A stretch of 19,413 nt of DNA from a virus (Duplodnaviria > Heunggongvirae > Uroviricota > Caudoviricetes): positions 1 to 19,413 of IMG/VR virus record IMGVR_UViG_2703718769_000016; one strand, given 5' to 3'. Each line of letters begins with the position of its first letter. Positions within the stretch are counted from its first letter, which is position 1. The position numbers and the translations under genes are program-made. The notes beneath the pieces were generated by a model. The model was given only the letters and a program-made list of their open reading frames with translations, made no database searches and was not told the origin of the DNA. Shown piece after piece: positions 4,907 to 19,413 of the stretch.

Positions 4907-5486
4907 AATTATCTCCATTTTCACAAATGAACTTTGTTGATGCAGTGCCTGGTGCCTCTAGGTGACGTTAACCAGTTAACAATTAACGCCGGAATACATA
5001 AGAGGATACTTACGCCAGTAAAAGACCGCTTTACTGATTTAACTGTTCCGCGTGCGCTTAGCCGCATTCACCGCATCACAAAATTCACTTTAAAAAGGGC
5101 GGCAGAGCAGTCACGGAGTAAAACTGATACCGCCAAACGTCACCAGAAAATTGATAACAGAGGGCGTTGCAGCGGGGTTGTCACTTAAGCGTATGGTCAA
5201 CCTTACAACCCGGTGTCCTCAACGGGGAAGAAATAACCCCGCCATACTTACCGCCGCGCCATTTCGCGGATTGCCACAACCGGAAGCACACGGTCGAAGA
5301 AATCTAACGACAAGCCTTCTAAGGAAAAGACGCCTTCGCCGTGTGCTTTCGTGTTGTGCCCTGACTTTTCAGGGAAATATCCTTTCAGTAAACTGTCAGT
5401 GCCGGATGCTCACCCGTGTCCGGTGCACGTTCTCCCCCTCACCAGTGGATAACTCCAAAACTACTGACAACCCCAGGAGGGTGAAT

Positions 5487-13038: not shown

Positions 13039-13149
13039 AAACGATTTGCGGGGAAAGGATAGTTAAGTAGAATTGCTGCGGGTGCTTGAGGCTATCTGTC
13101 TCAGGCATGAACACCAAAAGGCAGATAGAGAAAAGCCCCAGTTAACATT

Positions 13150-13215
13150 ACGCGTCCGGCAAGACGCTTAACATTAATCTGAGGCCATATCTATGCTCTA
13201 CACACGTAGGTTAGC
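13150..13215 (-). ncRNA. Predicted Sok-like antisense RNA of the hok locus (approximate position)
   Basis: Inferred from hok-family organisation; candidate minus-strand promoter (TTGCCT then 17 nt then TAACCT) would place a transcript antisense to the upstream in-frame ATG and SD at 13181-13195. Confidence 0.25.
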
Positions 13216-13249
13216 CTCTTACGTGCCGAAAGGCAAGGAGAAGCAGGCT

Positions 13250-13405
13250 ATGAAGCAGCAAAAGGCGATGCTAATCGCCCTGATCGTCATCTGTTTAACC
13301 GTCATTGTGACGGCACTGGTAACGAGGAAAGACCTCTGCGAGGTACGAATCCGAACCGGCCAGACGGAGGTCGCTGTCTTCACAGTCTACGAACCTGAGG
13401 AGTAA
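13250..13405 (+). CDS. hok: Hok/Gef-family type I toxin (51 aa membrane peptide)
   Basis: MKQQKAMLIALIVICLTVIVTALVTRKDLCEVRIRTGQTEVAVFTVYEPEE: hydrophobic TM helix plus conserved RKxLCE...EVA motif of the Hok family; SD AAGGAG; an in-frame upstream ATG at 13193 with its own SD (mok-like leader); structured 3' region with fold-back hairpin and terminator. Confidence 0.8.
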   Translation: MKQQKAMLIALIVICLTVIVTALVTRKDLCEVRIRTGQTEVAVFTVYEPEE

Positions 13406-13570: not shown

Positions 13571-14221
13571 ATGAATGAAAATCAGTTAGCTCCTTGTTGG
13601 GAATTTCAACCTTATCTTGCTGAAAGCAATGTTCGCCAGTTGTTGGCGGAGATCGCTAACGTACTTGAGCAGTTGTACTATCATAAGCACGTATTAGACA
13701 GCAACTGGTCTGAAGGTGTAAGGGCTTATGATTGGGTCAGAAACCATCTTATTCAAAATGAAGGCGCAATTCCTGGTCTTAAGATGATTTCCAAGGGGTT
13801 GGACTATGTAGTTGCTTTAAATAAAGTTCCGCTACAATTTACCAAAGATTGCATTAATAACCCCAAAAAGAAACATCGCCTGCGTCGAAATAAAGTAGAG
13901 CATGAGCAGCTTTCATTGTTTGGTGATGTTGAGGCTGAGCAAGATATTACATGGCGAGTCATAGCGGAGCCATTTTTATCCGAAGAGGGAGATGGTGAAT
14001 TAGAGTCCACACTGCCTCGTTGGGAGGTGGCTCTTGTTGGGTTTAATATCTATGGTGCTCAGATTAGTATGGTTTCTCATCAATCTACAGCATCAATGCC
14101 ACTTATGCCCCTTGACGGTAACACACTCCCTGGCGAAGCGGAGATTAATAAGGTGTCTCTTCGTCGGCGTACGAAGGATAAAATTTTGGATGTGAGCAGT
14201 AATGGAACATCAGGTGAATAA
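13571..14221 (+). CDS. Hypothetical 216-aa protein, candidate toxin/effector partner of the HTH-M78 peptidase
   Basis: Long ORF in a low-GC insert; no motif recognised by eye; 3' end overlaps the start of the downstream HTH/peptidase gene by 20 nt (operon). Confidence 0.6.
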   Translation: MNENQLAPCWEFQPYLAESNVRQLLAEIANVLEQLYYHKHVLDSNWSEGVRAYDWVRNHLIQNEGAIPGLKMISKGLDYVVALNKVPLQFTKDCINNPKKKHRLRRNKVEHEQLSLFGDVEAEQDITWRVIAEPFLSEEGDGELESTLPRWEVALVGFNIYGAQISMVSHQSTASMPLMPLDGNTLPGEAEINKVSLRRRTKDKILDVSSNGTSGE

Positions 14222-15305
14222 CTTCACTGAGTATCGAGGCGATAAGCTCAAACTAGCAAGAATGGCTATTGGGCTTTCATGTGAAGAGTTGGCCGAAAAA
14301 ATTGGCAAAACAAAACAATTCGTTAGCAAATTGGAGAAGGGATTTAGGCCATCAGAGCAATGCCTGGAGTTAATAGCCTCAGCTCTTATGATTAAGCCCG
14401 ATTTTCTATTTACTGAGCGAAAATATGCTCTGGAAAGCGATGTTTGCCATTTTCGGAGTAAGAAGTCCAGGACTCAAACGCTGACTAATAGTGTCTTGGC
14501 TAGGGCTGAGATTCTTAATATTATAATTTCTGCTGTTGAAGGTGAAATCGAATTCCCTGATGTCAACATACCAGAGCACCCAGGAACTGAATTACTTACC
14601 CCGAATGATATTGAGCGAGTGGCAGAAGATTGTCGCCGTGCATGGAATCTAGGTCTTGGCCCTATATCATCAATGGTGAAATTGGCGGAGAGTTTGGGGG
14701 TAATCGTTGCGCATGTTACGGGAGTCGATGATCGTGTTGATGCATTCACTGTTCACAATAACAGGCCTGTTATTATCAGGAACAATGTAAAAAAAAGCAT
14801 ATGTAGATTTCGCTCTGATTTAGGTCATGAGTTAGGGCATTTAGTAATGCATGAGGGCATAACTACTGGTGATAAACTTACGGAATCACAAGCTGATCAC
14901 TTTTCTAGCGCCTTATTGGTTCCTAGGCTATCTTTCATTAAAGAATTTCCACGAATACGAGGTAAGCAATTCGATTGGAGTGCTCTGGTTGAATTTAAGC
15001 TTAGATGGAAAATTAGCCTTAAAATGTGTATTTATCGAGCCAGTGCATTAGGACTATTGACCCAGGAACAGGCAAGAACTGGCTATATGCATCTTAATTC
15101 TAGAGGGTACACGAGAGTTGAACCAGGTGATGAACTTTTGCGCCACGAAGAACCAAGTATGCTGTCCGAAGCGATTGACATGCTGGATGATGCAACTTGG
15201 TTAAGAATTCTTATGAAAACTGGCTTGAGTCAAGATTTAATTCGTGAGTTGTTCTCCATCAATCGACCTATTACAAATCCAAGAAATATTTTTCAGATTG
15301 TTTGA
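14202..15305 (+). CDS. Xre-family HTH fused to ImmA/IrrE-type (M78, COG2856) zinc metallopeptidase
   Basis: N-terminal HTH (LKLARMAIGLSCEELAEKIGKTKQFVSKLEKG); HEXXH zinc-binding motif HELGHLVMHE about 140 residues later; 367 aa, typical for HTH-COG2856 fusions. Confidence 0.85.
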   Translation: MEHQVNNFTEYRGDKLKLARMAIGLSCEELAEKIGKTKQFVSKLEKGFRPSEQCLELIASALMIKPDFLFTERKYALESDVCHFRSKKSRTQTLTNSVLARAEILNIIISAVEGEIEFPDVNIPEHPGTELLTPNDIERVAEDCRRAWNLGLGPISSMVKLAESLGVIVAHVTGVDDRVDAFTVHNNRPVIIRNNVKKSICRFRSDLGHELGHLVMHEGITTGDKLTESQADHFSSALLVPRLSFIKEFPRIRGKQFDWSALVEFKLRWKISLKMCIYRASALGLLTQEQARTGYMHLNSRGYTRVEPGDELLRHEEPSMLSEAIDMLDDATWLRILMKTGLSQDLIRELFSINRPITNPRNIFQIV

Positions 15306-16737: not shown

Positions 16738-16749
16738 AAGGGGGTATTG

Positions 16750-17112
16750 ATGTGTATAGAGTTTGTTTTGCCTTACCCGCCGACGGTGAATACTTACTGG
16801 CGACGTCGTGGCAGCACATATTTTGTATCAAAAGCCGGGGAGCGTTATCGCCGGGCAGTGGCGTTTATTGTTCGCCAGCAGCAGTTGAAATTAAGCCTGT
16901 CCGGACGGCTGGCAATAAAAATTATTGCAGAGCCACCGGATAAGCGCCGCCGTGACCTGGACAATATTCTGAAAGCACCGCTGGATGCGCTGACGCACGC
17001 GGGGTTGTTAATGGACGATGAACAGTTTGATGAAATCAATATTGTACGTGGTCAGCCAGTATCTGGTGGACGGCTGGAAATAAGAATTACAGAGGTGGGT
17101 GTGCATGAATAA
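16750..17112 (+). CDS. rusA: RusA Holliday-junction resolvase (crossover junction endodeoxyribonuclease)
   Basis: 120 aa; motifs PPTVNTYWRRRG, DKRRRDLDNILKAPLDALTHAGLLMDD and GGRLEIRITE match the RusA family; SD AAGGGGGT. Confidence 0.85.
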   Translation: MCIEFVLPYPPTVNTYWRRRGSTYFVSKAGERYRRAVAFIVRQQQLKLSLSGRLAIKIIAEPPDKRRRDLDNILKAPLDALTHAGLLMDDEQFDEINIVRGQPVSGGRLEIRITEVGVHE

Positions 17113-17794
17113 CCAGTATTTACAGTTTGTTCGTGAGCAACTCATGATTGCCACTGCAGATCTCAGTGGGTCGACAAAAGGCCAGCTGGAAGCCTGGCAG
17201 GAAAATGCCCTGTTCGATACAGGGCGTTACAGACGCAAAAAAATTCGTTACCGCGATGAGGTAACTGGAAAAATGATCACGCGGGATAATCCCCCGATCC
17301 AGGGTAAACAATCACTGGCGAAAGGCTCATCAATTGCGCTGGTCAGTCCTGTTGAGTTTGCAACATCATCGTGGCGGCGTGCCCTTCTGGAACTGGAAGA
17401 ACATCAGAAGGCGTGGTTGTTGTGGTGTTATGGCGGAAACATTTGCTGGGAGCATCAGATCGCGATAACGCAGTGGGTGTGGAGTGAATTTAAAACTCAG
17501 TCCGGCTCCAGAAAAATTGCAGTGAAAACGCTGGAGCGTGTGAAGAAGTTGATCTGGCTGGCGGCACAGGATGTCAGAGGATGGGTTACCGGGTGTGAGG
17601 TCTACCAGAGACAGGAGCTTGCCAGACTGTGTGGAGTTAAGCCTGATAACTGGAGCCATAATTATGCGAACTACTGGCGTGAGATGTGCGATATTTTTAA
17701 GCGCCTCGATAGAGAATCCTTGATTTGCTCCGTGAAAATAAGAGCGCAACAAAAAGCGACCTTTTCACGACGAGATATTGCAAAAGTCAATTAA
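17105..17794 (+). CDS. Putative late-gene antitermination protein (Q-like), function inferred from position
   Basis: 229-aa ORF whose ATG overlaps the rusA stop (ATGAATAA) with SD GAGGTGG; followed about 70 nt downstream by a promoter-like element and a strong terminator (pR'/tR'-like); no Cys-rich zinc finger seen, so the family is uncertain. Confidence 0.4.
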   Translation: MNNQYLQFVREQLMIATADLSGSTKGQLEAWQENALFDTGRYRRKKIRYRDEVTGKMITRDNPPIQGKQSLAKGSSIALVSPVEFATSSWRRALLELEEHQKAWLLWCYGGNICWEHQIAITQWVWSEFKTQSGSRKIAVKTLERVKKLIWLAAQDVRGWVTGCEVYQRQELARLCGVKPDNWSHNYANYWREMCDIFKRLDRESLICSVKIRAQQKATFSRRDIAKVN

Positions 17795-17816
17795 ATCGCG
17801 TATGTTTCGTATAAAT
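17778..17816 (+). promoter_or_regulatory. Candidate pR'-like late promoter
   Basis: TTGCAA (17778-17783) then 17 nt then TATGTT (17801-17806); TATAAAT at 17810-17816 as an alternative -10. Confidence 0.25.
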
Positions 17817-17856
17817 CTGATATTTTGCCGATTTTGTACGCGATGGCAAAGTAAGA

Positions 17857-17882
17857 AAAAAACACCGCCAGGTGGTTTTTTT
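17857..17882 (+). terminator. tR'-like Rho-independent terminator downstream of the Q-like gene
   Basis: AAAAAAACACC-GCCA-GGTGG-TTTTTTT: hairpin flanked by an A-run and a T-run (bidirectional-looking). Confidence 0.45.
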
Positions 17883-18005
17883 ATGTCCGAAAATCTCGTC
17901 AGTACAGTAAACGCGCTGGTGGTGGTGAATACCGGTCTTTCAGCTTGCTGGCTTTTTTGACAAGAGTTATTGGTGTGTCACGTTAACCGGAAAAGGGAAA
18001 AAGAC

Positions 18006-18203
18006 ATGCTGAAACAGCAGGATATGACCGAAACCGCCAGAGTGGTGTTTAATGAATTAAGCGTCACTGAACCGGCGACAGTCGGGGAGATTGCGCAGAA
18101 TACTTATCTTTCACGTGAACGCTGCCAGTTAATACTGACCCAGCTTGTTATGGCGGGGCTGGCAGACTATCAGTTCGGTTGTTACAGACGCCTTCAGTCC
18201 TGA
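18006..18203 (+). CDS. Small wHTH-like DNA-binding protein (65 aa)
   Basis: SD AAAGGGAAAAAG before ATG 18006; TVGEIAQNTYLSRERCQLILTQLVMAGL resembles a winged-helix recognition segment; terminator overlaps the stop. Confidence 0.45.
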   Translation: MLKQQDMTETARVVFNELSVTEPATVGEIAQNTYLSRERCQLILTQLVMAGLADYQFGCYRRLQS

Positions 18204-18215
18204 AGGCTTTTTTAT
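18190..18215 (+). terminator. Rho-independent terminator
   Basis: Perfect hairpin GCCTTCAG-TC-CTGAAGGC followed by TTTTTTATTT. Confidence 0.6.
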
Positions 18216-18354
18216 TTGTGGTAAATGGGCGGCTGGTGGGTGTTAGGGGCACTCACCAGCCATCTGCTCATGCGTCCGGATCACAAGCAAACCTCAGGCC
18301 CATCTGCTTTGCGCAAAAGCAGAATGAGCCTATCAGAGACAGGCTTAATGATCC

Positions 18355-19413
18355 ATGCTTAATACTGTAAAAATATCCAGTTGTGAGTTAATCAACGCCG
18401 ACTGCCTGGAATTTATCCGGTCGTTACCCGAAAATTCTGTTGACCTGATAGTCACGGACCCGCCGTACTTTAAAGTGAAGCCTGAGGGCTGGGATAACCA
18501 GTGGAAGGGCGACGATGATTACCTGAAGTGGCTGGACCAGTGTCTTGCGCAGTTCTGGCGGGTGCTGAAACCTGCCGGAAGTCTTTACCTGTTCTGTGGC
18601 CATCGCCTGGCATCTGATATCGAAATCATGATGCGTGAACGCTTCAGTGTGCTGAACCATATTATCTGGGCGAAGCCGTCCGGACGCTGGAACGGGTGCA
18701 ACAAGGAAAGCCTGAGGGCGTATTTCCCCGCCACAGAGCGCATTCTGTTCGCGGAACATTATCAGGGGCCGTATCGCCCGAAAGATGCCGGGTATGAGGC
18801 GAAGGGCAGGGCACTGAAACAGCATGTGATGGCCCCGCTGATTGCTTACTTTCGTGATGCGCGCGCTACCCTGGGGATAACGGCAAAACAGATTGTGGAT
18901 GCCACAGGAAAGAAAAACATGGTGTCGCACTGGTTCAGTGCCAGCCAGTGGCAGTTACCGAACGAGGATGATTACAGAAAACTTCAGGTGCTGTTTGCCC
19001 GGGTGGCAGAAGAGAAACATCAGCGGGGTGAACTGGAAAAGCCACATCACCAACTGGTCAGCACATACAGTGAGCTGAACCGGCAGTATGCCAGCCTGCT
19101 GGAAGAGTACAAATCACTGCGGCGTTATTTTTCCGTATCGGCAGCCGTTCCTTATACGGATGTCTGGACGCACAAGCCTGTGCAGTATTATCCGGGCAAA
19201 CATCCCTGTGAAAAACCGGCAGATATGTTGCGGCAAATGATTACCGCCAGCAGTCGTCCGGGTGACCTGGTTGCAGATTTCTTCATGGGGTCCGGTTCGA
19301 CAGTCAAAGCAGCGATGGCGCTGGGGCGTCGTGCAATTGGTGTCGAGCTGGAGGCTGAACGTTTTGAGCAGACCGCAATGGATGTACAGAATTTAATCAG
19401 AAAGAGAGAGTGA
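18355..19413 (+). CDS. DNA methyltransferase, beta-class amino-MTase (N6-adenine or N4-cytosine), apparently orphan within this window
   Basis: Motif IV TDPPYF near the N-terminus (residues about 34-39) and motif I DFFMGSGST near the C-terminus give the beta-group motif order; 352 aa; ORF ends exactly at the window edge. Confidence 0.85.
   Translation: MLNTVKISSCELINADCLEFIRSLPENSVDLIVTDPPYFKVKPEGWDNQWKGDDDYLKWLDQCLAQFWRVLKPAGSLYLFCGHRLASDIEIMMRERFSVLNHIIWAKPSGRWNGCNKESLRAYFPATERILFAEHYQGPYRPKDAGYEAKGRALKQHVMAPLIAYFRDARATLGITAKQIVDATGKKNMVSHWFSASQWQLPNEDDYRKLQVLFARVAEEKHQRGELEKPHHQLVSTYSELNRQYASLLEEYKSLRRYFSVSAAVPYTDVWTHKPVQYYPGKHPCEKPADMLRQMITASSRPGDLVADFFMGSGSTVKAAMALGRRAIGVELEAERFEQTAMDVQNLIRKRE

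What the first reader, a model, noticed from the sequence alone, without database searches (positions are those of the whole stretch)
18204..19413. Beta-class DNA methyltransferase with a structured upstream intergenic region and a small wHTH gene
The methyltransferase has no restriction partner visible upstream and the window ends at its stop codon. The 150-bp region before it holds a 12-bp-stem hairpin (18231-18261) and a palindrome CTGCTTTGC/GCAAAAGCAG (18304-18322), and a 65-aa wHTH protein lies just upstream, possibly a controller. It may be an orphan anti-restriction methylase or half of a restriction-modification system that continues beyond the window.
Basis: partly seen in the sequence, partly recalled or inferred. 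Interest (0 to 1): 0.35.

Follow-up and report, generated by a model that had tools for sequence, protein, structure and literature searches.

The report
Promiscuous phage methylase with conserved RNA leader
The gene is a prophage copy of the already characterised non-specific adenine methylase M.EcoGII with no restriction partner, but the "structured" 135 bases in front of it are a strongly conserved folded RNA leader found before this methylase family in many bacteria and absent from the RNA family library, probably controlling its translation.

Summary
The 352-aa ORF (18355-19413) is a beta-class N6-adenine methyltransferase with intact DPPY and FxGxG motifs. It is 91% identical to M.EcoGII, the characterised non-specific adenine methylase of E. 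coli prophages.

It lies in the late region of a lambdoid prophage, after RusA, Q, a tR'-like terminator and a 65-aa winged-helix ORF. In a 99.6%-identical genome the next genes are tRNA-Ile/Arg/Arg, an esterase and the lysis cassette, with no endonuclease. So it is an orphan anti-restriction methylase, which is already known.

The new part is the spacer.
- It has a three-way junction (P1-P3) and two hairpins (P4, P5).
- A loop pairs with the bases just 5' of the AUG.
- It is 86% identical across Enterobacterales, against 49.5% at methylase third codon positions.
- On the model-fitted alignment, 29 of 34 pairs show compensatory changes.
- It always abuts the methylase or, in one clade, a Com-like zinc-finger gene.
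- It matches no Rfam family.

It most likely gates translation of a toxic enzyme; the trigger is unknown. The winged-helix gene is dispensable, so the "controller" reading is not supported.

The parts
17099..17794 (+). Antiterminator Q gene (231 aa), directly upstream of the module
   Evidence: PF06323 Phage_antiter_Q, E=3.7e-83. It overlaps the end of the RusA gene (16747-17112).
17864..17885 (+). tR'-like intrinsic terminator just after Q; the place where late transcription is expected to stop in a lysogen
   Evidence: Hairpin ACCGCCAGGTGGT followed by TTTTTTT. The mosaic boundary between different Q/pR' types lies here. That it acts as the Q-dependent tR' is inferred, not shown.
18006..18203 (+). 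65-aa winged-helix protein, function unknown, an accessory gene
   Evidence: phrog_331 at E=1e-37 with no assigned function. Weak TrmB match at E=0.0024, below the Pfam cut-off. Variation is at third codon positions. Winged-helix fold at pLDDT 88.7. Missing from 16 of the 47 full-length loci; 14 of those 16 keep the leader.
18190..18215 (+). Terminator-like hairpin with a T-run that overlaps the stop codon of the 65-aa ORF
   Evidence: GCCTTCAGTCCTGAAGGC followed by TTTTTT. The stem is invariant and the loop varies among relatives.
18223..18357 (+). Conserved structured 5' leader RNA of the methyltransferase, taken as a whole
   Evidence: Covariance-model hit at 18223-18360: 105.6 bits, E=6e-27 and 1.5e-26. 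Covariation. No Rfam family matches.
18226..18302 (+). P1: UGGGC (18226-18230) pairs with GCCCA (18298-18302) and closes the three-way junction
   Evidence: 99.8% of cells paired in 87 leaders. Compensatory variants are UGAGC/GCUCA and UGGGG/CCCCA.
18231..18261 (+).
   Evidence: 10 of 11 modelled pairs show changes on both sides, for example UA:63 with GC:18, and GC:52 with UA:13, AU:8 and CG:4.
18263..18291 (+). P3: UCUGCU (18263-18268) pairs with AGCAAA (18286-18291). Its conserved loop L3 (18269-18285) contains GGAUCA.
   Evidence: One pair occurs as CG:23, AU:10, UA:4 and UG:4 in a MAFFT alignment of 42 sequences made without any model. All 6 pairs covary in the 87-sequence alignment.
18304..18322 (+).
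   Evidence: All 6 modelled pairs show changes on both sides, for example UA:58 with GC:20 and CG:5. The structure is conserved but the sequence is not.
18325..18347 (+). P5: UGAGCCU (18325-18331) pairs with AGGCUUA (18341-18347)
   Evidence: 85.9% of cells paired, and 5 of 6 pairs show changes on both sides.
18349..18354 (+). UGAUCC directly 5' of the AUG, complementary to GGAUCA (18278-18283) in loop L3. This pairing would sequester the translation initiation region.
   Evidence: 84.8% of cells paired. Variants include GGUCA/UGAUC, AGAUCA/UGGUCU, GUCAUA/UAUGAC and GGUCAU/AUGACC. This helix is part of the minimum-free-energy fold of the window.
18355..19413 (+). Orphan beta-class N6-adenine DNA methyltransferase, an M.EcoGII orthologue
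   Evidence: 91% identical to M.EcoGII over 349 aa. 91% identical to the methyltransferase of phage 1720a-02. PF01555. DPPY at residues 35-38 and FMGSG at residues 310-314.

Best explanation
The gene encodes an orphan methyltransferase of the M.EcoGII family. [quoted passage not shown] The gene sits in the Q-antiterminated late transcription unit of a lambdoid prophage.

In a lysogen, late transcription is expected to stop at the terminator just after Q, so the enzyme stays silent. After induction, Q-modified polymerase should read through that terminator and the one after the 65-aa ORF. The enzyme would then be made and would methylate replicating phage DNA, so that progeny resist restriction in new hosts. 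These steps are inferred from the anatomy and from published work on M.EcoGII.

A second control layer is the ~135-nt leader (18223-18357). It is a conserved RNA with a three-way junction (P1-P2-P3), two hairpins (P4, P5), and a loop (L3) complementary to the six bases before the AUG. It can also adopt an alternative fold: a 5' helix A1, and a long 3' domain whose basal helix is the L3/pre-AUG pairing.

I propose that it gates translation initiation of this toxic enzyme by hiding or exposing a start region that has no Shine-Dalgarno sequence. What flips it is unknown. It could be the methyltransferase itself, SAM or SAH, another cellular factor, or simply folding kinetics.
For: Identity of the enzyme:
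- 91% identity to M.EcoGII with motifs intact.
- The M.EcoGII paper states that the enzyme is prophage-borne, silent in the lysogen, harmful when over-expressed, and close to the phage 1720a-02 enzyme (PMC5778455). That phage is my best phage-collection hit.

Orphan status and late-operon position.

Terminators.

Leader:
- Mean pairwise identity is 85.8%, against 49.5% at methyltransferase third codon positions.
- nhmmer found it before the methyltransferase in 45 of the 47 full-length loci from other species.
- The covariance model found it in 52 of 81 divergent viral loci, plus Gilliamella and Zooshikella genomes.
- A search with a leader-only DNA pattern returned 80 loci, all true motif hits. 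75 were directly followed by a DPPY methyltransferase ORF, 4 lay at contig ends and 1 was followed by a short ORF.
- Structure on a model-free MAFFT alignment: 93.2% paired, 8 pairs with double changes, 0 of 500 shuffles as good.
- Structure on 87 leaders aligned to the model: 91.6% paired against 78.6% in shuffles; 29 of 34 pairs and 323 cells with double changes against 77 +/- 8; covariation score 0.32 against 0.03-0.05 when partners are slid.
- G-U pairs fit only the + strand RNA.
- The L3/pre-AUG pairing is kept with changed sequence. In 10 leaders it covers the AUG of a Com-like ORF instead.
- Alternative helices are also conserved: 92% and 88.5% paired, with 41 double-change cells against 11 in shuffles.
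- Predicted ground states differ between species.
- No AGGA/GGAG-type Shine-Dalgarno sequence precedes the AUG.
Against: - Nothing here shows that the RNA changes translation. No expression or probing data were available.
- The L3/pre-AUG helix varies mostly by one-sided, wobble-compatible changes. Its double changes are no more frequent than in shuffles. Per-sequence duplex energies are modest, with p mostly 0.01-0.25.
- One divergent clade (L160, L163, L166, L168, L226) lacks the L3 motif.
- The 87-sequence alignment was fitted to the model, which biases pair counts toward it.
- Covariation in the alternative helices could partly reflect shared ancestry.
- The pR' promoter was not located by the consensus scan, so Q-dependence is inferred from gene order.
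- The M.EcoGII sequence was machine-read from a PDF and contains obvious reading errors, so the identity figure is approximate.
Confidence: 0.6

Rival explanations
1. This is half of a restriction-modification system. The endonuclease lies beyond the window end and the 65-aa winged-helix protein acts as the C-protein-type controller.
For: The window ends at the methyltransferase stop codon. A small DNA-binding-type protein and a palindrome lie upstream.
Against: - A 99.6%-identical genome and the Stx2 phages continue with tRNA genes, then stx or an esterase, then lysis genes. No nuclease is present.
- M.EcoGII is non-specific (PMC5778455), so no cognate endonuclease is conceivable.
- The small gene is missing from 16 of the 47 full-length loci; 14 of those 16 keep the leader.
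- The palindrome's sequence is not conserved, only its pairing.
- The fold is a generic winged helix, not an Xre-type C protein.
Confidence: 0.02
2. The leader is a metabolite riboswitch, for example for SAM or SAH. The three-way junction is the aptamer. Ligand binding shifts the balance against the alternative fold that hides the start region.
For: - Junction and loop nucleotides are highly conserved while helices P2 and P4 vary in sequence.
- Covariation is strong.
- Two conserved, mutually exclusive folds exist.
- The element directly abuts a start codon.
- The only constant neighbour is a SAM-dependent enzyme.
- The element occurs in several orders of Gammaproteobacteria, so its partner is probably universal.
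Against: - No similarity to any Rfam riboswitch, even at E up to 10.
- Riboswitches normally control metabolism or transport of their ligand, not a phage DNA methylase.
- No ligand was tested.
Confidence: 0.2
3. The leader is an autoregulatory site. The methyltransferase binds its own leader or methylates adenines in it, and this feeds back on translation. M.EcoGII is known to methylate RNA.
For: - The methyltransferase is the only gene always linked to the motif.
- M.EcoGII acts on RNA (PMC5778455 abstract).
- Over-expression is harmful, so feedback would be useful.
Against: - No direct evidence.
- In 10 leaders the first ORF after the motif is com-like rather than the methyltransferase.
- M.EcoGII has no known sequence preference.
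Confidence: 0.15
4. The element is not a translational switch. It is an RNA processing or stability element (for example an RNase III site in the long A1+P2 hairpin), or it gives rise to a stable trans-acting small RNA.
For: - In the window, A1+P2 form about 20 nearly continuous base pairs.
- Prophage late regions carry several small RNAs, such as StxS, AgvB and AsxR (PMC7547250, PMC4104026).
Against: - The element always ends at a start codon.
- P2 is shorter and interrupted in most species.
- It has no terminator of its own.
- It matches no known small RNA family.
- AgvB and AsxR map elsewhere.
Confidence: 0.1
5. Control works through a leader peptide. The conserved AUG/GUG at 18225 starts a short upstream ORF (MGGWWVL... 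in most species, 45 aa in the window, ending 5 nt past the methyltransferase AUG). Its translation would remodel the RNA or couple to the methyltransferase start.
For: - An AUG or GUG followed by GG is present in all 87 leaders.
- In the window the upstream ORF overlaps the methyltransferase start.
Against: - ORF length ranges from 3 to 56 codons in 86 of the 87 leaders, and no peptide is conserved beyond what helices P1 and P2 dictate.
- A 1-nt indel at 18303 shifts the frame in 42 of 59 close relatives.
- No PHROG or NCBIfam family matches it.
- It has no convincing Shine-Dalgarno sequence.
Confidence: 0.05

Closest known systems
M.EcoGII / M.EcoGI (E. coli O104:H4 C227-11 prophage methyltransferases; Murray et al. 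2018, PMC5778455)
   Same: - 91% amino-acid identity over the full length.
- Beta-class motif order: DPPY, then the target-recognition domain, then FxGxG.
- Carried on a prophage, with no endonuclease partner.
- The module is present in 2430 of 5426 complete E. coli genomes.
   Different: About 30 substitutions, concentrated in residues 240-350, and 3 extra C-terminal residues. Non-specific activity of this particular allele was not shown. The published work does not describe the upstream leader.
Phage Mu com-mom operon (translational control of a toxic DNA-modification enzyme)
   Same: - A harmful phage DNA-modifying enzyme is expressed late and held back after transcription by RNA structure at its start.
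- In 10 related leaders a 36-48-aa Com-like zinc-finger ORF lies between the leader and the methyltransferase. It is 43% identical to Mu Com over 30 aa. It also hits phrog_6417 'translational regulator'.
   Different: - The window has no com gene.
- Mom is not a methyltransferase.
- The Mu com-mom region has no match to the leader model; the best score is 2.6 bits.
- The leader is a large multi-helix RNA, not a single inhibitory hairpin.
Translational riboswitches and protein-binding mRNA leaders
   Same: A conserved multi-helix fold with covariation lies in a 5' UTR and ends at the start codon. Alternative pairings involve the initiation region. Junction nucleotides are conserved while peripheral helices vary.
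   Different: No ligand or binding protein is known. It has no homology to any of the 4227 Rfam families. It is associated with a phage DNA methylase, which is not a usual riboswitch target.
Type II restriction-modification systems with C-protein control
   Same: A small DNA-binding-fold protein and a palindrome lie upstream of a methyltransferase gene.
   Different: There is no endonuclease. The small protein is a winged helix, not an Xre-type HTH. The small gene is dispensable. The palindrome is an RNA helix with covariation rather than a conserved operator.

Membership tests
M.EcoGII family (beta-class N6-adenine DNA methyltransferase) | N6_N4_Mtase domain (PF01555) | tested here: met
   E=2.2e-44, 152 bits against a cut-off of 26.7, covering residues 29-340.
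M.EcoGII family (beta-class N6-adenine DNA methyltransferase) | Beta-class motif order: N-terminal DPPY, central target-recognition domain, C-terminal FxGxG | tested here: met
   DPPY at residues 35-38 and FMGSG at residues 310-314, both identical to M.EcoGII in the pairwise alignment.
M.EcoGII family (beta-class N6-adenine DNA methyltransferase) | Close full-length sequence similarity to the characterised enzyme | tested here: met
   319 of 349 residues identical (91%) to the M.EcoGII sequence in Supplementary Table S1 of PMC11551740. That text was machine-read and contains errors.
M.EcoGII family (beta-class N6-adenine DNA methyltransferase) | Methylates adenine in any sequence context | not testable with these tools
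   This needs an enzyme assay or a SMRT/nanopore methylome.
M.EcoGII family (beta-class N6-adenine DNA methyltransferase) | Prophage-borne, without a cognate endonuclease | tested here: met
   Lambdoid late region with RusA and Q upstream. tRNA genes, an esterase and lysis genes follow in a 99.6%-identical genome.
Type II restriction-modification system with C-protein | Adjacent restriction endonuclease gene | tested here: not met
   None upstream in the window. None downstream in L001 or L002.
Type II restriction-modification system with C-protein | Xre-type HTH controller protein obligatorily linked to the system | tested here: not met
   The fold is a winged helix. The gene is missing from 16 of the 47 full-length methyltransferase loci from other species; 14 of those 16 still carry the leader.
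Mu com-mom type control | Com zinc-finger translational activator gene just upstream of the modification gene | tested here: not met
   There is no CxxC...CxxC ORF in window 18204-18354. One is present in 10 of 87 related leaders.
Mu com-mom type control | RNA structure that occludes the start of the modification gene | tested here: inconclusive
   The L3/pre-AUG pairing is predicted and is 84.8% conserved, but it has little double-change covariation.
Riboswitch | Conserved structured aptamer supported by covariation | tested here: met
Riboswitch | Specific small-molecule ligand | not testable with these tools
   This needs in-line probing or ITC.
Riboswitch | Homology to a described class | tested here: not met
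   Rfam 15 gave no match over the leader at gathering score or at E up to 10. At gathering score 16 further loci also gave none.

The most novel reading that the evidence does not exclude
The 135-nt leader is a previously undescribed class of regulatory RNA, either a riboswitch or a self-sensing leader. Its three-way-junction state is stabilised by a ligand such as SAM or SAH, or by the methyltransferase or its m6A mark. That would switch on or off translation of a promiscuous, host-toxic DNA/RNA adenine methylase during phage lytic growth. In one clade it would work in series with a Com-like translational activator.
Probability: 0.3. Interest if true: 0.8.

Novelty: new variant of a known kind. 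Interest (0 to 1): 0.55.

Why it matters
The enzyme is ordinary in the sense that it is already known. M.EcoGII is sold as a reagent and is widely used for chromatin footprinting and RNA-methylation tools.

How phages keep such a dangerous enzyme in check has not been explained beyond "silent in the lysogen". A large, covariation-supported RNA element sits in front of this gene. The gene module is present in about 45% of complete E. coli genomes and in prophages of many Gammaproteobacteria. The element is absent from Rfam and from the papers I could search.

If it is a switch, it would be a new regulatory RNA class in the best-studied bacterium. It would also be a second example, after Mu com-mom, of layered post-transcriptional control of a toxic DNA-modification gene. 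It could serve as a practical handle for controlling M.EcoGII expression.

Tried and rejected
- tRNA or tmRNA in the spacer: none found.
- Known RNA families: only sok and DicF elsewhere in the window. Nothing over the leader beyond noise at E of 0.9-9.
- AgvB, AsxR, StxS and Pas small RNAs: they map to other places in lambdoid late regions.
- The 45-aa ORF 18225-18362 as a gene: rejected. There is a frameshifting indel in 42 of 59 relatives. The ORF from the conserved start is 3-56 codons long in 86 of 87 leaders. No protein family matches.
- The palindrome as a DNA operator for the winged-helix protein: rejected. Its sequence changes while its pairing is kept, and the protein gene is often absent.
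- The hairpin 18231-18261 as an intrinsic terminator: no T-run follows it.
- A sigma-70 promoter inside the spacer: none on the + strand at the scan's threshold.
- Mu com-mom leader homology: none.
- CsrA-type GGA motifs: GGA is present in the L3 loop of the E. coli group only, so this was not pursued.
- Literature searches for a described methyltransferase leader or riboswitch found nothing relevant.
- The supplement of the M.EcoGII paper is not held, so the sequence was taken from the SUPREM paper's supplement.
Full report
**Observation**

The 352-aa ORF at 18355-19413 ends at the last base of the window. The hairpin at 18231-18261 has 12 pairs, one of them G-T, and a 7-nt loop. The imperfect palindrome at 18304-18322 lies downstream of it.

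The 65-aa ORF at 18006-18203 lies upstream. It is followed by a terminator-like hairpin with a T-run at 18190-18215.

As RNA, 18224-18366 folds far better than shuffled controls. The energy is -65.3 against -42.3 +/- 3.8 kcal/mol, z = -6.1, and 0 of 200 shuffles fold as well.

**Genomic setting**

The preceding genes are:
- a DUF968/HNH protein;
- RusA;
- an antiterminator Q of family PF06323, E=3.7e-83.

A hairpin with a T-run at 17864-17885 follows Q directly. This is the late-regulatory region of a lambdoid prophage.

The stretch 17795-19413 is found in 2430 of 5426 complete E. coli genomes and in many Stx2 phages. In the closest genome (99.6% identity) the methyltransferase gene is followed by tRNA-Ile, tRNA-Arg, tRNA-Arg, a sialate esterase and the lysis cassette. 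In an Stx2a phage the same tRNAs are followed by stx2AB. There is no endonuclease, so the "half of a restriction-modification system" reading fails.

**The enzyme**

The protein matches PF01555 at E=2.2e-44. Its nearest solved relatives are beta-class adenine methyltransferases.

The literature on M.EcoGII describes a non-specific adenine methyltransferase. It is encoded on E. coli prophages, silent in the lysogen, harmful when over-expressed, and close to the phage 1720a-02 enzyme (PMC5778455). The M.EcoGII sequence printed in the supplement of PMC11551740 is 91% identical to the window protein over 349 residues, with DPPY and FxGxG intact. The 1720a-02 enzyme is also 91% identical. The gene is therefore a member of a known, characterised family. 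Its non-specific activity is inferred, not shown.

**The small ORF**

Among 59 distinct relatives, variation falls almost entirely on third codon positions, so it is a real gene.
- It belongs to phrog_331, which has no assigned function.
- Its Pfam TrmB match is below threshold.
- Its predicted structure is a classic winged helix at pLDDT 88.7.
- Its nearest solved structures are IclR, MarR and SelB winged-helix domains.

It is missing from 16 of the 47 full-length methyltransferase loci from other species, and 14 of those 16 still carry the leader. Unrelated genes take its place there. A role as an obligatory controller is not supported.

**The leader, the unexpected result**

Aligning the spacer from species of many genera showed near-invariance of about 135 nt ending at the AUG. 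The genera include Escherichia, Salmonella, Klebsiella, Enterobacter, Mixta, Erwinia, Rosenbergiella, Buttiauxella and Mangrovibacter.

Mean pairwise identity by region:

| Region | Mean pairwise identity |
|---|---|
| Leader | 85.8% |
| Methyltransferase codon position 1 | 82.8% |
| Methyltransferase codon position 2 | 87.5% |
| Methyltransferase codon position 3 | 49.5% |

The noncoding spacer is thus as constrained as nonsynonymous sites. An nhmmer profile found it before the methyltransferase in 45 of the 47 full-length loci, with or without the small ORF.

**Structure of the leader**

Two nested folds fit the alignment.

Fold B has these helices, in window coordinates:

| Helix | 5' strand | 3' strand | Note |
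|---|---|---|---|
| P1 | 18226-18230 | 18298-18302 | encloses P2 and P3 |
| P3 | 18263-18268 | 18286-18291 | loop L3 at 18269-18285 |
| P5 | 18325-18331 | 18341-18347 | |

On a model-free MAFFT alignment of 42 sequences, fold B is 93.2% paired. It has 8 pairs with double changes, and no shuffle reaches any of its measures. One P3 pair occurs as CG:23, AU:10, UA:4 and UG:4.

A covariance model built from fold B gave these results:
- The window scores 105.6 bits.
- It hits the upstream regions of methyltransferases that are only 47-55% identical, in Zooshikella and Gilliamella. There P1, P2 and P3 are kept through compensatory changes.
- It hits 52 of 81 divergent viral loci.

On the resulting 87-sequence alignment:
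- 91.6% of cells pair, against 78.6% in shuffles.
- 29 of 34 pairs have changes on both sides.
- 323 cells have changes on both sides, against 77 +/- 8 in shuffles.
- The covariation score is 0.32, against 0.03-0.05 when partners are slid.

This alignment is fitted to the model and so leans toward it. Even so, the effect is large, and it agrees with the MAFFT-only result. The frequent G-U pairs fit only the + strand, which means an RNA made in the direction of the genes.

**Link to the start codon, and a second fold**

Loop L3 (GGAUCA, 18278-18283) is complementary to UGAUCC (18349-18354), directly 5' of the AUG. This pairing is 84.8% conserved and appears with altered sequences: GGUCA/UGAUC, AGAUCA/UGGUCU, GUCAUA/UAUGAC and GGUCAU/AUGACC. 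Most of its variation is one-sided and wobble-compatible, and duplex energies are modest.

Fold A is the minimum-free-energy structure of the window. In it this helix is the base of a long 3' domain, and AUGGGC (18225-18230) pairs with GCUCAU (18266-18271). The fold-A-specific helices are also conserved: 92% and 88.5% paired, with 41 double-change cells against 11 in shuffles. Predicted ground states differ between species. Fold A is favoured by 14 kcal/mol in the window, while fold B is favoured in L122, L117 and many divergent sequences.

No Shine-Dalgarno sequence precedes the AUG. Together these points fit a conformational gate on translation initiation, but that function is inferred.

**Association**

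A scan of viral contigs with a DNA pattern taken only from the leader returned 80 loci:
- all 80 scored as true motif instances;
- 75 were followed directly by a DPPY methyltransferase ORF;
- 4 lay at contig ends;
- 1 was followed by a short ORF.

In 10 of the 87 aligned leaders, the ORF that starts at the leader's 3' end is a 36-48-aa CxxC...CxxC protein, and the methyltransferase follows it. That protein resembles Mu Com:
- 43% identity over 30 aa, pairwise E=4e-7;
- PF10122 at E=0.0065, below the cut-off;
- phrog_6417 "translational regulator" at E=2e-5.

This recalls the Mu com-mom arrangement for a toxic DNA-modifying enzyme. Mu's own com-mom region has no match to the leader model.

**Is the leader known?**

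Rfam 15 gives no match over the leader at gathering score or at E up to 10. At gathering score 16 further loci also gave none. The prophage small RNAs AgvB, AsxR, StxS and PasA-D map elsewhere. Full-text searches found no description of a leader for this methyltransferase family. Absence from these sources does not prove it is unpublished.

**Rejected ideas**

- The 45-aa ORF across the spacer is not conserved.
- The hairpin is not a terminator, because no T-run follows it.
- The palindrome is not a conserved operator, because its sequence varies while its pairing is kept.

**Verdict**

- The methyltransferase is an orphan M.EcoGII-type enzyme. This is already known, and its role in protecting phage DNA from restriction is the accepted interpretation.
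It is a widespread RNA leader that is absent from Rfam and from the papers I could search, and it probably controls translation of the enzyme.
- The trigger and the direction of the switch remain open.

Noticed in passing
L161:1340-1465 (also L159, L162, L164, L169, L171, L172, L180, L182, L232): In one clade of viral contigs a 36-48-aa CxxC...CxxC ORF resembling phage Mu Com starts inside the leader's 3' end and precedes the M.EcoGII-like methyltransferase. This gives a com-mom-like arrangement with a methyltransferase in place of Mom.
   Followed up: partly
window 17795-17885: The short stretch between Q and the first terminator looks like the constitutive pR'-tR' transcript, of the StxS/IsrK type. 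Only a weak isrK match was found (12.7 bits, E=4.3), and the consensus scan called no promoter there. The mosaic boundary between different Q types falls just after this terminator.
   Followed up: partly
window 17886-18005: The ~110 nt between the tR'-like terminator and the 65-aa ORF are conserved across prophages that carry unrelated Q genes. The stretch includes GCTTGCTGGCTTTTTT near 17943-17958. Its function was not examined.
   Followed up: no
window 13080-13255 (+) and 5097-5148 (-): Rfam matches at gathering score: sok antitoxin RNA (117 bits), implying a hok/sok module, and DicF small RNA (76.7 bits). Both are typical cargo of Qin/Rac-like lambdoid prophages.
   Followed up: no
window 14202-15305 (+): A 367-aa protein that fuses an Xre-type HTH (PF01381) to an IrrE/ImmA-like M78 peptidase domain (PF06114).
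   Followed up: no
L149:3865-4000: A decayed copy in Enterobacter sp. Bisph1. The methyltransferase start is AAG instead of ATG, only about 93 residues of the methyltransferase remain, and the leader has a mismatch in P1 (GCCAA). This fits relaxed selection on the leader once the gene is dead.
   Followed up: partly
L090 and L095, -443..-204 relative to the methyltransferase start: Where the winged-helix ORF is absent, two Kosakonia-type loci carry a 79-aa cysteine-rich ORF (several CxxC motifs) upstream of the leader. It has no significant Pfam match.
   Followed up: partly
L001:11014-11211: An STnc100 small RNA (134.6 bits) lies just after the three tRNA genes downstream of the methyltransferase in the closest genome, at the position where Stx phages carry stx.
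   Followed up: no
L160, L163, L166, L168, L226 (leader hits ending near position 1500): A divergent clade keeps P1, P2, P4 and the junction sequence but lacks the L3 AGGUCA motif and its complement before the AUG. The start-region pairing is therefore not universal.
   Followed up: partly
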